Below are positions 2,022-62,225 of a DNA stretch of 64,000 nt, piece by piece. The DNA lies in assembly GCA_951406725.2 (NCBI GenBank), contig OX597837.1:41230001-41294000 (forward strand). Direction: 5' to 3'. Position 1 is the stretch's first letter; each line of letters opens with the position of its first letter. The translations under genes and the position numbers were made by a program. This DNA is from Octopus vulgaris (taxonomy: Eukaryota). The notes beneath the pieces were generated by a model. The model was given only the letters and a program-made list of their open reading frames with translations, was not told the origin of the DNA and did no database searches.

Positions 2022-2400
2022 ATCCAAACTTACAGGGAATAAATCCAAACTTACAGGGAAAAATCAGATTTAGGATTGAATCCAATTTTATAGTAAAATA
2101 TTATATTATATTAAATTAGAGACAAAACCACTATTAGGCAAATCAAACAATGAAAAACTTAAGCCAATACATATGATTAAACCTCGCCAAGAAAAATATT
2201 TAAACCACCTGATGAATGACTGCGACTCAAAAATTTGAAGATGTTAGCAGGCATGAAACGATCGTAGTGTGATATTAATTATATTTTTTTGATAATTTTG
2301 TTATATATTTAAATAATATAAATTAATCATATGTATTGGCTTAAGTTTTTCATTGTTTGATTTGCCTAATAGTGGTTTTGTCTCTAATTTAATATAATAT
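2022..2400 (+). mobile_element. PLE-type non-autonomous element with inverted repeats and hammerhead, within (TA)n
   Basis: ~77 bp perfect inverted arms 2104-2180 / 2323-2400 around a hammerhead; first ~110 bp very similar to 61784-61890. Confidence 0.7.
2206..2269 (+). ncRNA. Type I hammerhead ribozyme
   Basis: cac-CTGATGA-atgactgc...gcaggcat-GAAA-CGATCG-TA-gtg: stem I cac/gtg, stem II 7 of 8 bp, palindromic stem III, GUA cleavage triplet ending 2266. Confidence 0.85.
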
Positions 2401-2436
2401 ATATATAAATATATATAAATATATCCACATATATGT

Positions 2437-2650
2437 GTGCGTTTGTGTTTCTTCCCCATCATTGCTAGGCAACCGATGCTGCGTGTTTACGCCACCGTAA
2501 CATAGCGGTTCGACAAACAAGATACTCATAAATTAAGTATCAGGCCTTGAAAATAATAAGTCCTGGGATCGATTCGTTTGACTAAAACAATTCTTCAAAG
2601 CCGTGCTCCAGCATGGCCGCAGTCTAATGATTAAAACAAGAATAACATAT
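2437..2650 (+). mobile_element. SINE family A, diverged 3' half
   Basis: caaccgatgctg...gtgctccagcatggccgcagtc match to other A copies. Confidence 0.75.
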
Positions 2651-2836
2651 AAGGGATTAGATATATTAAAGGTCGGGACCTGCCAGAACCCTTACAATGT
2701 TGGGGCATATGTCTTGCGACATTTGCTCCGATCCATTAGGTTCTAAGTTCAAATCACTCCGAAGCTATGTTAACTCTTCAACCTTTCGGAGGTCGATAAA
2801 TAAAGTACCAGTCAAGCACTGGCGTTGTAATCGCCC

Positions 2837-3150
2837 AGGTCGACTTTGCCTTTCATCCTTTTGGGGTCGATAAATTAAGGACCAGTTACGCACTGGGGTC
2901 GATATAATCGACTTAATCCGTCTGTCTGTCCTTCTTTGTCTTCTCTATGTTTAGCCCCTTGTAGGTAGTAAAGAAATAGGTATTTCATCTGCCGCTACGT
3001 TCTGAGTTCAAATTCCGCCGAGGTCGACTCATTCATCCTTTCGCAGTCGATAAATTAAGTACCAGTGAAACACTGGGGTCGAATTAATTGACATATCCCC
3101 TCCCCCGAAATTTCAGGTCTTGTGCCTATAGTAGAAAAGGATTATTATTC
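2837..3150 (+). mobile_element. SINE family B, two tandem units
   Basis: aggtcgactttgcctttcatcctt..ggggtcgataaattaag core twice; diverged B-like copy just upstream (2740-2830). Confidence 0.8.
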
Positions 3151-3152
3151 TT

Positions 3153-3567
3153 TTATTCTTTTTCTCTTTTATTTGTTTCAGTCAGTTGAATGCGGCCATT
3201 CTGGAGCACCGCCTTTAGTCGAGCAGATCGACCCCATGACTTATTCTTTGTAAGCCTAGTACTTATTCTTTCGGTCTCTCTTGCCAAACCACTAAGTGAC
3301 GGGGACGTAAACACACCAGCATCGGTTGTCAAGCGATGTTGGGGGTGGGGGACAAACACAGACATATAAACATATACATACATACATATATACATACATA
3401 CATACATACATATATATATATATATATATATATATATATATATATATATACGACGGTCCTCCTCCAATTTCCGTCTACCAAATCCACTCACAAGGCTTTG
3501 GTCGGCCAGAGGCTATAGTAGAAGACACTAGCCAAGGTGCCACGCAGTGGGACTGAATCCCGGAACA
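3153..3567 (-). mobile_element. SINE family A (5' truncated)
   Basis: reverse complement of the A consensus with internal (TA)n. Confidence 0.9.
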
Positions 3568-4253
3568 ACACAGTTGTTGTTGTTGTTGTTGCTGTGGCTG
3601 TTGTTTTGTTTGAGTGTCAGAGAGGAACACATTATTTAATGTGATGTTATTTTAAAAAATCATGGTTATTATTTCTAGCATTTCTACCCTACCTCTTAGG
3701 GCTTCCCCTGACGGCTCTTAAGCTACAACGTTGTATATTACAGGGGAGAAGGAATACACAGACAATGAAAAGCGGGTGAAAGTGAGGGTGGATGTGTGGG
3801 AGAGCTTGCAAGGGGGGGAAGTGAGAGTTGCAGGGAAATGAAAGGGGCGTGGGGAGAGAGAGAAAGACAGTGAGGGGTGGGGAGAAAATCAGGGGGTAGA
3901 GAATGGGTAGATTGTTCTCAAATAATAAAGAACTTCAAAGAAAGTATACAAAGGCCTGTAAATGTGCATGCACATGTACGATTGCACATGCGCAGATATG
4001 CATAGAGACTTGCAGATTGCACAAGTCATTATTACTTACACAGAAATACATATTGAAATACAGGGGGTGGGTGTCGAGGGACTCAGGCATAGGTATCGTA
4101 ATAATATATATCAGGGGACAAGGCTTGCTTTCATACTTAAACACCCAGAGGGCGCTACTTGGATCTCATAGAAATAACAGCCAAACCCTAACCTTTTATG
4201 ATTGAGCAGTGTTGTCCTAAATGAACCATGTGGGAAATGTCAACTAATGTCAT

Positions 4254-4927
4254 CTGAAAAGGAATGAAAGGCAAAGTCGACCTCGGCGGAAGTTGAACTC
4301 GGAACGGAGCGGCAGACGAAATACCTTTTTCTGTACTACCCACAAAAGGCTAAACACAGAGGGGACAAACAAGGACAGACAAACGGATTAAGTCGATTAT
4401 ATCGACCTCAGTACGTAACTGGTACTTAATTTATCGATCCCGAAAGGATGAAAGGCAAAGTCGACCTCGGCGGAATTTGAACTCAGAACGTAGCGGCAGA
4501 CGAAATGCCCATTTCTTTACTACCCACAAGGGGCTAAACACAGAGAGGACAAACAAGGACAGACAAACGGATTAAGTCGATTACATCGACACCAGTGCGT
4601 AACTGGTACTTATTTAATCGACCCCGAAAGGATGAAAGGCAAAGTCGACCCCGGCGGAATTTGAACTCAGAACGTAGCGGCAGACGGAATACCTATTTCT
4701 TTACTACCCTCAAGGAGCTAAACACAGAGAGGACAAACAAGGACAGACAAAGGGATTCAGTCGATTACATCGACCCCAGTGTATAACCGGTACTTATTTA
4801 ATCGATCTCGAAAGGATGAAAGGCAAAGTCGACCTCGGCGGAATTTGAAGTCAGAACGTAACGGCAGACGAAATACCACTAAGCATTTTGCTCGGCGTGC
4901 TAAAGATTCTGCCAGCTCACCACCTTT
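4254..4927 (-). mobile_element. SINE family B tandem array, period 184 bp
   Basis: acg(a/g)aat recurs at 4316, 4500, 4684, 4868; the tRNA-like head is present only once, at 4870-4927. Confidence 0.9.
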
Positions 4928-59866: not shown

Positions 59867-60780
59867 TCATAAGAAATATAAAATCAAACCGTAAAACTTC
59901 TTTAAGTACGCCAAAGAAACTGCCTCTGTGTGTTGCAAGGTAAGGCCATTCCTCCAAAACGATGATTCCCTCAGGGGAAATTCAAGGAGAATACGTGAAT
60001 CCCTGAATGAACACTTCACAGGTGTTAACACGCACTCCTTACGGCTCCTGCAAGTTAGCAAACCTGTAGAGTTCTTTATTACTATAGATGTAAAAATGGA
60101 GGCAGTAACGATTGATTACATCAACATCCAAGAAGAGGATTCAATACTGGCAATAGTTGACGTAGATGCTCCCGAAAAAAAATGAAGGAGGGAATAATAT
60201 ATCCTAATCATAAAGGAGAAAGCAGGGCAGGGACTAAAAACTATAGGCCTATTTCTCTGACCTCACACATTAGCCAAGTCATGGAGCGAATAGTCCAAAA
60301 GAAATTAGTTGCATTCCTTCAAGAAAATGATTTGCTGACTGACACCCAGCATGGTGTTCGACCAAGTAGAAAACATCCTGACACAGTTCTTGCAGCTCTA
60401 CGACTGGGTGTTGATAAAGTCGGCCATGTTATGATATGTCACGTGCTGCGTAATCTTGACATAGTCGGAAACTTGGAGAATGGCTACATGACTTTCCAAA
60501 AGCTAGAAGTCATGTAGTGGTAGCCAACGGGGTCACCTCCAAAGAAACACAAATAATCAGTAGTATTCCACGGGGCACTGTGTTAGGGCAGTTGTTATTC
60601 AGAGTGGCTCTCTCAAACACGATCTCTCTGCTGCTCAGATAGCCACCCTTGCCAGTTATGCAGATGACACAAAAGTCTCTCAGAGGATACAGAACCCTGA
60701 AGTTGGCTGGATGGCTCGTTCGAACTTTCAGACTGAGAGAAAAGGAAACCATGATAGCCATCTGGAGGATTGTAGAGGTA
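59867..60780 (+). mobile_element. CR1/L2-group LINE reverse transcriptase pseudogene fragment
   Basis: KNYRPISLTSHISQVMERIV, QHGVRPSR, SIPRGTVLG, and YADD at 60657-60668; frameshifts and deletions. Confidence 0.88.
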
Positions 60781-61033
60781 TAACTAACCTGTCTTTCTGA
60801 CATTTTCTCTTGAAAATGTCGGAAAGACAGGTCAGTTATTCCCCTACGATTTTTTGTAAATTCTTAAATATATCTCCTGTATATATTTATATATATACTA
60901 CTAAACAAACATGATTTTTATTGAACTCAAAATACTTTTTAGGTGACTCGTTCTGATCACTTTCTTAAATACTTCTTTGTAAACTGTTTTAAACATTTTC
61001 TTATTATTATCAAAGAATGTATATCTGTATTTT

Positions 61034-61561
61034 AAATGGACATTTCTTTTAAACAACGAAAAGATAGAGTACAGGACATACAAAACAAGGAAAATTCCCC
61101 TTCTTCAGTCGCCTTAGTTTCATCTACTCCACGTTTCGAAGGTCAACGCGATACATGACTTCAATAAAACTTTCCTTCCCGCGAAAATCAAATTAAATAA
61201 AATTTGCGGGGTAAAAATGGTAACAAAAACAGGACAGTAACGATGTACAAAATATAAACAGTAAAAGACAGGACACGGAGAATAACAGTAACACAAACAA
61301 GAAGGGCTGTTAAGCCAAACGAGATAAAAAATTTTTACGAATGCTGTTTTTTGAGAACGGCAGGGAGCAACAGATTTTACCGTCTCTACTTGAAGGAAGC
61401 CAGGAGAAGAAAGACAGTGGTGGCCATCTCATCACGTGATGTATCGCCTTGACCCTCGAAACGTGGAGTAGATGAAACTAAGGCGACTGAAGAAGGGGAA
61501 TTTTCCTTGTTTTGTATGTCCTGTACTCTATTTTTTCGTTGTTTAAAAGAAATGTCCATTT
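61034..61561. repeat. ~123 bp inverted repeat (61034-61157 / 61439-61561), PLE-like element
   Basis: near-identical arms; degenerate hammerhead-like 3' half ctcGAAACgtggagtaga. Confidence 0.7.
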
Positions 61562-61953
61562 CCTTGGTTTTGTGTTTATGTTTTCGTTTCTCATTGGGTT
61601 CGACGTTTTTTGGAGTCCTGTACCTATATATGCATGTATATATACATGTAGAGGTAGGTACGTACATATATGTATGTATATATGCATGTTTTATTCATTA
61701 AGTTACATATATATATACATACATACATATATATACATATATATACATATACATATATATATATATATATATATATAATAAATATTAGGGAATAAATCCA
61801 AATTTACAGGGAAAAAATCAGATTTAGGATTAAATCCAATTTTATAGTAAAATATTATATAATATTAATTCGAGACAAAACCACTATTTTGCAAAACAAA
61901 CAAGGAAATACTTTAAAAATACATAAAAAATTTTGATATAAAGAAATAAACCG

Positions 61954-61996
61954 CCACTACAATCGTTTCATGTCTTCAATGACATTCGTCAGGTGG
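61954..61996 (-). ncRNA. Type I hammerhead ribozyme
   Basis: exact reverse complement of 62057-62099. Confidence 0.85.
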
Positions 61997-62056
61997 ATTT
62001 TCGATCTTCTAATCTCCTAATCTGTTTTAATTAAAACAGATTAGGAGATCGAAAAT

Positions 62057-62099
62057 CCACCTGACGAATGTCATTGAAGACATGAAACGATTGTAGTGG
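62057..62099 (+). ncRNA. Type I hammerhead ribozyme
   Basis: ccac-CTGACGA-atgtc attgaa gacat-GAAA-CGATTG-TA-gtgg; GUA triplet ending 62095. Confidence 0.85.
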
Positions 62100-62225
62100 C
62101 GGTTTATTTCTTTATATTAAAAATGTTTATGTATTTTTTAAGTCTTTCCTTGTTTGTTTTGCAAAATAGTGGTTTTGTCTCGAATTGATATTATATATAT
62201 ATATATATATATATACATATATATA

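What the first reader, a model, noticed from the sequence alone, without database searches (positions are those of the whole stretch)
2022..62197. Many distinct hammerhead-carrying mini-elements sitting in (TA)n microsatellites
Seen: hammerhead or hammerhead-like motifs at 2206(+), 34103(-), 38590(+), 39969(-), 45954(-), 52377(+), 53579(-), 56175(+), 61954(-) and 62057(+), about one per 6-7 kb. Except for 38590 they lie in 150-400 bp non-coding islands bordered by (TA)n on one or both sides, and stems I and II differ in sequence between most families while remaining paired. Known: PLE pseudo-LTRs carry minimal type I hammerheads with tiny palindromic stem III and are often arranged as inverted partial repeats. 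Inference: several non-autonomous, ribozyme-processed PLE derivatives target TA tracts in this genome; no PLE RT or GIY-YIG ORF is present here.
Basis: partly seen in the sequence, partly recalled or inferred. Interest (0 to 1): 0.8.

Follow-up and report, generated by a model that had tools for sequence, protein, structure and literature searches.

The report
Penelope-like retroelement ends in TA repeats
These short DNA islands, nearly all next to TA repeats, carry hammerhead ribozyme motifs (four intact, the rest mutated or partial) and are likely the ordinary cut-short ends of several Penelope-like jumping genes, an arrangement already described in other animals.

Summary
The motifs are real but overcounted. 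The ten sites are nine insertions. Four motifs (2209+, 34179-, 61992-, 62061+) have an intact core and a palindromic stem III (4 hits against a mean of 0.07 in 60 shuffles). Four have core or stem changes and two are half motifs. Eight of nine insertions abut (TA)n, above background, but non-hammerhead SINEs here are often TA-adjacent too. Family A shows the known Penelope-like (PLE) signature twice: head-to-head 5'-truncated arms with an optional 3' tail of about 84 nt, and about 1,000 contigs per DNA run match it. Families A, D and E resemble Hydra-clade hammerheads, whose elements target (TA)n (Craig 2021). B and C are the minimal type (Cervera 2014). In all 8 arms with a full-topology motif the predicted cut lies inside the copy, so the ribozyme did not make its ends. 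'Ribozyme-processed, non-autonomous' is therefore not shown. Truncated ends of autonomous PLEs fit best; only family B hints at a fixed-length unit. No parent ORF could be linked (no genome held). The scan reported the same kind of thing on other DNA (e1-7882047).

The parts
2024..2180 (-). Family A (subfamily A1) left arm: 3' end with the long tail, truncated downstream of the hammerhead; abuts TA tract 2000-2023
   Evidence: 61 of 61 nt identical to the right arm over 2120-2180
2181..2396 (+). Family A1 right arm: intact type I hammerhead (C3 2209, palindromic stem III, predicted cut after 2266), short 3' end without tail
34040..34185 (-). Family D: intact hammerhead (C3 34179, long stem II, palindromic 8-nt stem III, predicted cut after 34106), (TA)n on both sides
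38435..38620 (+). Family G: tRNA-like A/B boxes by eye (B box 38475-38484), (AAT)n, then the 5' half of a hammerhead (C3 38590) cut off by another repeat; not TA-bounded
   Evidence: no ARAGORN or Rfam hit; neighbouring repeat 38626-38765
39877..40089 (-). Family C: minimal hammerhead (C3 39999, U4>C, extra A after A9, 4-nt palindromic stem III, stem I broken), (TA)n on both sides; distant relative of B
   Evidence: downstream alignment to B2 p=0.007, to B1 p=0.65
45850..45998 (-). Family E: Hydra-type hammerhead with U4>C and U16.1>C (C3 45987, cut position 45958), (TA)n on both sides
   Evidence: by-eye match to Hydra-2_Amil in the supplement of PMC8557442
52320..52500 (+). Family B copy 1: minimal hammerhead (C3 52381, A6>U, G12>A, likely dead), TA on both sides
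53575..53650 (-). Family F: hammerhead core and stem II (C3 53606) running directly into (TA)n; no 3' stem I strand
56102..56291 (+). Family B copy 2: minimal hammerhead (C3 56179, A6>U, stem III no longer palindromic); TA tract on the 5' side, short TA then (CA)n on the 3' side
61778..62022 (-). Family A2 left arm: intact hammerhead (C3 61992, predicted cut after 61958) and long 3' end with a tail of about 84 nt, into (TA)n
62023..62191 (+). Family A2 right arm: intact hammerhead (C3 62061, predicted cut after 62095), short 3' end into (TA)n; head-to-head with the left arm through a palindromic junction

Best explanation
These islands carry type I hammerhead motifs 112-214 nt from one end and are likely the 5'-truncated, sometimes inverted 3' ends (pseudo-LTR plus tail) of about six families of endonuclease-bearing Penelope-like retroelements. 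Inferred mechanism: the parent's GIY-YIG endonuclease nicks (TA)n. Its reverse transcriptase starts internally on an uncleaved RNA at one of two sites downstream of the hammerhead, and it usually stops early. This leaves tail-only pieces, 150-250 bp solo ends, or two head-to-head arms of which one has the extra tail. The hammerhead rides along inside the pLTR. It would fold as a dimer through its palindromic stem III and act, if at all, on the parent transcript. It did not set the ends of these copies. Shown here: motifs, boundaries, inversion and tail geometry, TA adjacency, high copy abundance of family A. Inferred: parent elements, enzymology, clade assignment, any cleavage.
For: Both family A insertions have a long-tail arm facing left and a short arm facing right that stops at the same point, with different 5' truncation points. 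This is the head-to-head inverted pLTR with an optional tail of PMC3846280 and PMC8557442; PMC11167929 explains the tail by two internal RT start sites. Laying contigs on the A2 arm gave 1274 and 977 contigs in two DNA-type runs with different organism labels. Loose ends show TA runs joined near the short end (61856, 3 contigs in X10) and TA-rich sequence replacing the body behind 61849 (11 contigs in X2, 4 in X10), i.e. tail-only pieces. Of 10 substitutions listed at 5% or more, 1 falls in the hammerhead (61980, loop II), as does one insertion (61977); none is in the core or stems. Between A1 and A2 the core, stems I and III and the base of stem II are kept while the adjacent flanks align at only 10 of 23 and 20 of 52 columns. 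Hydra-clade PLEs have a 4-bp palindromic stem III, and 24 of the 27 Hydra families listed have a (TA)n preference. By my arithmetic on that table C3 lies 63-186 nt from the 3' end in 23 of 25 rows; here it is 112-214 nt. Family E matches Hydra-2_Amil by eye in stem I, stem III and downstream sequence. PMC4209133 already reports that most minimal hammerheads in animal genomes are single motifs probably related to truncated PLEs, with opposite-strand pairs 100-700 bp apart and an extra base after A9.
Against: No RT or GIY-YIG sequence is joined to any copy, and no genome was available to find a parent. The up to 30 letters seen upstream of the A2 hammerhead in other copies are AT-rich and show no sign of coding (loose ends at 62014-62015); this fits a 3' UTR but also a non-coding unit. 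B1 and B2 share the same 5' boundary (0 of 2000 shuffles reach the score), which random truncation does not predict. All 8 5' ends lie 6-90 nt upstream of C3. The tail (about 84 nt) is longer than the 30-40 nt in print. None of the families matches the published octopus Hydra-1_Obim hammerhead by eye. The lack of core variants may partly reflect the 80% likeness filter and lower cover there.
Confidence: 0.65

Rival explanations
1. At least family B is a fixed-length (about 185 bp) unit. It is either a non-autonomous PLE-dependent SINE-like element, or a run-off cDNA made when RT starts just downstream of the 5'-most pLTR and copies to the transcript's start. Such a unit would carry promoter, hammerhead and RT start site and could be re-mobilised in trans.
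For: B1 and B2 are only 78% alike over 114 nt yet start at the same TCGCCAT motif and end near the same point. The A1 right arm also starts near a TCGCCA (p=0.004, picked after looking). PLE pLTRs hold promoters and suffice in cis for mobilisation in trans (PMC3846280). Retrozyme families include monomers in proportions from 0 to 1 (preprint 10.64898/2026.07.22.740005).
Against: n=2 for family B. Family A has variable 5' ends, down to tail-only pieces. A steep truncation gradient plus selection for copies that still hold a whole hammerhead would also give 5' ends just upstream of C3 (mean 43 nt).
Confidence: 0.25
2. One reading: the islands are retrozyme-like monomers, cut out by the hammerhead, circularised and reverse transcribed by a PLE.
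For: Non-LTR retrozymes are 170-400 nt, carry type I hammerheads with palindromic stem III and make circular RNAs in mussel, coral and axolotl (PMC7229834). They are related to PLE pLTRs (preprint). Copies made from a circle would hold the cut site internally. Site 53606 ends at a possible CUA triplet.
Against: No tandem monomers occur in the window. 3' ends are fixed rather than permuted in A (two ends, both insertions) and B. Head-to-head inversions with a one-sided tail are a PLE insertion signature. Hammerhead mutants did not affect insertion in vitro, and no RNA ends were found at the cut in the anole element.
Confidence: 0.07
3. The TA tracts are not chosen targets. They grew from the elements' own AT-rich ends after insertion, or simply reflect a genome packed with microsatellites.
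For: The window has 163 TA tracts of at least 10 nt. Three non-hammerhead SINE motifs lie within 225 nt of a tract of at least 14 nt in 7 of 9, 6 of 8 and 8 of 10 cases, against 8 of 9 for hammerhead insertions. The short end of family A is itself TA-like.
Against: Bounding on both sides within 450 nt is 6 of 9 for hammerhead insertions, against 2 of 9, 2 of 8 and 6 of 10 for the SINE motifs and 0.133 background. C, D and E have sharp TA junctions at both ends. (TA)n preference is documented for Hydra and Naiad and linked to the EN linker.
Confidence: 0.15
4. The motifs are chance matches.
For: The relaxed descriptor gives 2.4 hits per shuffle (max 7). Rfam scores are far below threshold. The half motifs at 38590 and 53606 pass no descriptor.
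Against: Strict hits are 4 against 0.07, all with palindromic stem III (0 in 60 shuffles). The motif is conserved between diverged subfamilies A1 and A2.
Confidence: 0.02

Closest known systems
Minimal and atypical type I hammerheads of metazoan Penelope-like elements (Cervera and de la Pena 2014, PMC4209133)
   Same: Solo motifs scattered in the genome in several sequence families, extra base between A9 and 10.1 (B, C, F, G), palindromic stem III suited to dimer folding, opposite-strand pairs close together (A2).
   Different: No parent PLE is linked here; that paper's text, in the parts read, does not discuss (TA)n flanks.
Hydra clade of C-terminal EN+ PLEs (Craig et al. 2021, PMC8557442), including Hydra-1_Obim of Octopus bimaculoides
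   Same: (TA)n insertion preference, canonical core with a 4-bp palindromic stem III, hammerhead about 60-190 nt from the 3' end; family E resembles Hydra-2_Amil by eye.
   Different: The clade is defined by protein motifs that cannot be tested here; none of the window families matches Hydra-1_Obim; the family A tail is about 84 nt, not 30-40.
Inverted pLTRs with palindromic junction, optional tail and solo pLTRs (Adineta vaga Penelope, PMC3846280; anole Poseidon mechanism, PMC11167929)
   Same: Family A geometry: head-to-head arms, palindromic junction, tail on one arm only.
   Different: Here both arms are cut before any ORF; longer tail; microsatellite flanks hide any target-site duplication.
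Non-LTR retrozymes (PMC7229834; preprint 10.64898/2026.07.22.740005)
   Same: Non-coding units of 150-400 nt with a type I hammerhead, related to PLE pLTRs.
   Different: Defined by tandem arrays and circular RNA; none seen in this window.

Membership tests
Type I hammerhead ribozyme | Intact catalytic core with stems I-III closing in type I topology | tested here: met
   Met for 4 of 10 sites (2209+, 34179-, 61992-, 62061+); 4 have core or stem changes; 2 are halves.
Type I hammerhead ribozyme | Rfam Hammerhead_1 gathering score | tested here: not met
   10.8 bits against 34 for 62061+, the only site scanned alone; no hammerhead family among the 150 of 539 whole-window rows shown.
Type I hammerhead ribozyme | Self-cleavage as monomer or dimer | not testable with these tools
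   Only predicted stem III self-duplexes: -10.0 (A1), -10.3 (D), -5.8 (A2), -1.7 (C) kcal/mol. No raw RNA reads were available.
EN+ Penelope-like element | Linked ORF with telomerase-like RT and GIY-YIG endonuclease | tested here: inconclusive
   None in 150 frames of the window, as expected for truncated ends; no genome to search.
EN+ Penelope-like element | Hammerhead near the 3' end within the pLTR | tested here: met
   C3 lies 112-214 nt from the 3' end in 8 of 8 full-topology arms.
EN+ Penelope-like element | Inverted 5'-truncated copy and optional tail on one end | tested here: met
   2 of 2 family A insertions, loose ends at the short end; not seen in the 7 other insertions.
Hydra clade PLE | (TA)n insertion preference and a 4-bp palindromic stem III | tested here: met
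   Families A, D, E against the table; not unique to the clade.
Hydra clade PLE | RWK, DKT and CxCX5C protein motifs, no CCHH | not testable with these tools
   No protein is attached to any copy.
Non-LTR retrozyme | Tandem array of at least two hammerhead-bearing units | tested here: not met
   No tandem hammerhead units in the window; not tested genome-wide.
Non-LTR retrozyme | Circular RNA monomers | not testable with these tools
   Only contigs were offered.

The most novel reading that the evidence does not exclude
Some of these families (B above all, and the tRNA-headed repeat at 38435-38620) are true PLE-dependent SINEs: fixed-length, non-tandem solo units that arose when internal RT initiation ran off the 5' end of the parent transcript. 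They keep their own start site, hammerhead and RT-start signal and spread into (TA)n in trans, one of them under a tRNA-derived promoter. Hydra-type elements would also have a tail of 80-100 nt, set by two widely spaced RT start sites.
Probability: 0.2. Interest if true: 0.55.

Novelty: new member of a known kind. Interest (0 to 1): 0.25.

Why it matters
As it stands this is new sequence families of a described phenomenon. Its modest value is that one 64-kb window holds about six to seven hammerhead-bearing families, and that family A records the two-start-site 'tail' mechanism with a longer tail than reported. It would matter more if family B or the tRNA-headed repeat proved to be a fixed-length PLE-mobilised SINE, because non-autonomous PLE partners in the papers I read are tandem retrozymes and their monomers. 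My searches for a tRNA-headed, hammerhead-bearing PLE partner listed no paper that describes one by title or abstract start.

Tried and rejected
No whole genome is held, so no genome-wide counts, family consensus or ORF linkage. The whole-window Rfam scan was swamped by microsatellite miRNA matches. The repeat finder was swamped by simple repeats, so I used masked self-BLAST. A family B pattern in metagenome contigs gave 2 matches with unrelated flanks, one of them inside apparent bacterial genes; rejected as chance. A family A pattern gave 0 matches in genome contigs and 0 in viral contigs. Sequencing runs: no RNA holder listed, and all 24 runs are contigs. The two RNA-guess runs hold family A pieces (128 and 38 contigs) but are not shown to be RNA, so I draw nothing on expression. 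Summed depth is about 5-20 times or more higher over the 3' part than over the hammerhead in the DNA runs, but the tool states that contig depth cannot rank parts and subfamily divergence confounds it; not used as evidence. No strand-change or go-back joints were listed; contigs show presence only, so this is no evidence against tandem forms. Families D, E and A show no significant similarity downstream of the hammerhead (p 0.74-0.99). Window motifs from families A, B, C and two other TA islands were not found in the Craig supplement (one strand per term, line breaks can hide matches). Lunse et al. 2017 on dimeric PLE hammerheads is not held and is only recalled. The supplement of PMC13282606 was listed but not read, and its repeat library may already hold these families. 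My first parse of 45987 (3-nt stem III) was replaced by a Hydra-type parse.
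Full report
Setting. The window is 38% GC animal-type DNA packed with microsatellites and SINE-like repeats. I take it for an octopus from recall of its repeat families; no call names the organism, and no whole genome is held. Pfam found only a C2H2 zinc-finger frame (14313-14834) and a weak RVT_1 fragment (60161-60514, below the curated cut-off) among notable hits in 150 frames. 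The RVT_1 fragment looks LINE-like to me by recall. There was no GIY-YIG hit. The 150 frames were 149 of 191 stop-to-stop frames of at least 55 aa that passed a complexity filter, plus one added.

Observation. A strict type I hammerhead descriptor finds 4 motifs (C3 at 2209+, 34179-, 61992-, 62061+), each with an 8-nt self-complementary stem III. Sixty shuffles (dinucleotide-preserving, 300-nt blocks, simple repeats left in place) gave a mean of 0.07, and none with a palindromic stem III. Allowing core variants gives 5 against 0.18. 56179+ has A6>U and has lost the stem III palindrome; 52381+ also has G12>A; 39999- has U4>C and a broken stem I; 45987- has U4>C and U16.1>C. 38590+ stops at GAA where another repeat begins, and 53606- runs into (TA)n with no 3' stem I strand. 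Rfam gives 62061+ only 10.8 bits. The two motifs near 62 kb are one insertion, so there are nine insertions in six or seven families: A (twice), B (twice), C (a distant B relative), D, E, F, G.

TA association. With tracts of at least 10 nt, 7 of 9 insertions sit in islands of at most 450 nt bounded on both sides, against 0.169 of 46,770 complex positions (p=1e-4). With tracts of at least 14 nt it is 6 of 9 against 0.133. The test treats sites as independent. Three non-hammerhead SINE motifs are within 225 nt of a tract in 7 of 9, 6 of 8 and 8 of 10 cases, and bounded on both sides in 2 of 9, 2 of 8 and 6 of 10 (these motif sets may overlap in the same elements). So the association is real but only partly specific.

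Anatomy of family A. Both insertions (2024-2396 and 61778-62191) are head-to-head. The left arm ends in a long 3' end, and the right arm stops at the same internal point about 84 nt earlier. The 5' truncation points differ: the A1 left arm stops downstream of the hammerhead, the A1 right arm 28 nt upstream of C3, and the A2 arms 30 and 38 nt upstream, meeting in a palindrome. The A1 arms are identical over 61 of 61 nt, so that insertion is likely young; the A2 arms match at 141 of 159 columns. A1 and A2 share the 3' region at 79-85%. Next to the hammerhead they barely align (10 of 23 columns upstream, 20 of 52 downstream), yet both keep the core, stem I, stem III and the base of stem II, which suggests selection on the ribozyme in the parent lineages. 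Laying public contigs on the A2 left arm at 80% likeness gave 1274 and 977 contigs in two DNA-type runs with different organism labels, and 128 and 38 in two runs guessed to be RNA. Loose ends show (TA)n joined near the short end (61856) and TA-rich sequence replacing the body behind 61849, i.e. tail-only pieces; 24 of 129 loose-end rows were shown. One of 10 listed substitutions and one insertion lie in the hammerhead, both in loop II. Upstream of the hammerhead other copies continue in AT-rich sequence, but only up to 30 letters are visible, so the link to an ORF stays open.

The ribozyme did not make the ends. In 8 of 8 full-topology arms the predicted cut is 66-180 nt from the 3' end and the 5' end is 6-90 nt upstream of C3. 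The templates were therefore uncleaved at this site, or circular. Fixed 3' ends, inversions and the absence of tandem units in the window favour uncleaved linear RNA. This fits the anole Poseidon work: RT starts internally at two sites that bound the tail, AT-rich DNA is nicked on both strands, hammerhead mutants do not affect insertion, and no RNA-seq ends were found at the cut (PMC11167929, parts 1-2 of 4 read).

Comparison with print. Cervera and de la Pena 2014 (PMC4209133, parts 1-2 of 4 read) report thousands of minimal hammerheads per animal genome in several families. Most are single and probably from truncated PLEs, some are in opposite-strand pairs 100-700 bp apart, with an extra base after A9, a palindromic stem III and low in vitro activity as dimers. 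Craig et al. 2021 (PMC8557442; passages, section 11, supplement parts 2, 3 and 52 of 59 and three supplement searches) describe microsatellite bias, inverted 5'-truncated copies, the 30-40 bp tail and the Hydra clade. 24 of 27 listed Hydra families prefer (TA)n, including Hydra-1_Obim of Octopus bimaculoides. Their hammerhead table shows 4-bp palindromic stems III like A, D and E, and E resembles Hydra-2_Amil by eye in stem I, stem III and downstream sequence (not scored). By my arithmetic on that table, C3-to-end distances fall at 63-106 or 125-186 nt in 23 of 25 rows, which would fit a tail of 80-100 nt in this clade; that is my inference. PMC3846280 (passages) describes head-to-head inverted pLTRs with junction palindromes, a one-sided tail and solo pLTRs. 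Retrozymes are tandem and circular (PMC7229834, passages; preprint 10.64898/2026.07.22.740005, part 1 of 5 and passages). PLEs are an abundant and still active group in octopus (PMC13282606 and PMC8967140, passages); neither main text mentions ribozymes. A search for 'octopus' with 'hammerhead ribozyme' gave 5 papers, 4 listed, of which only Craig et al. is relevant. So these particular families seem undescribed as hammerhead carriers in the held library, though unread repeat libraries may hold them.

Results against my reading. No parent ORF is linked. The two family B copies, 78% alike, share their 5' boundary, which suggests a fixed unit: either a non-autonomous element or run-off to the transcript start. 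The A1 right arm begins near the same hexamer (post hoc, p=0.004); it recalls a YY1-type initiator motif, from memory only. Site 53606 ends at a possible cleavage triplet. The tail is longer than published ones.

Verdict. The best reading is truncated and inverted 3' ends of several Hydra-like and minimal-hammerhead PLE families inserted in (TA)n (confidence 0.65): new members of a known kind, interest 0.25. The boldest reading left open is fixed-length PLE-dependent SINEs, one with a tRNA-like head (probability 0.2, interest 0.55).

Noticed in passing
window 38435-38620 (+): tRNA-like A and B boxes by eye, an (AAT)n stretch, then the 5' half of a hammerhead cut by another repeat. Possibly a tRNA-headed SINE with a PLE-type tail. 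No ARAGORN or Rfam hit.
   Followed up: partly
window 53575-53650 (-): Hammerhead core and stem II whose 3' boundary falls at a possible CUA cleavage triplet directly in the TA tract; the only copy whose end could coincide with the cut.
   Followed up: partly
window 52328, 56101, 2184 (approximate): The 5' ends of B1, B2 and the A1 right arm all begin at or near the hexamer TCGCCA; perhaps a transcription start signal.
   Followed up: partly
window 4258-4877 and 42777-43530: Tandem arrays of a 184-190 bp unit (91% and 98% matches) that links by BLAST to the dominant dispersed repeat cluster; no ribozyme found in Rfam for the second array.
   Followed up: partly
window 53667-53879: Inverted-repeat element of about 210 bp beside TA tracts, MITE-like or another inverted PLE end without a hammerhead.
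   Followed up: no
window 40420-40578, 45111-45202, 29007-29144, 45621-45814: Other TA-bounded non-SINE islands without a hammerhead; may be tail-only PLE pieces or LINE ends.
   Followed up: partly
window 61034-61159 and 61436-61561: A 126-bp repeat pair beside a decayed RT fragment (60161-60514); it holds a hammerhead-like 7-mer, in opposite orientations, without valid stems.
   Followed up: no
window 13778-14834 and 62239-62685: Decayed LINE-like 3' coding fragments; the first ends in C2H2 zinc fingers by Pfam, and the second shows similar motifs by eye only.
   Followed up: no
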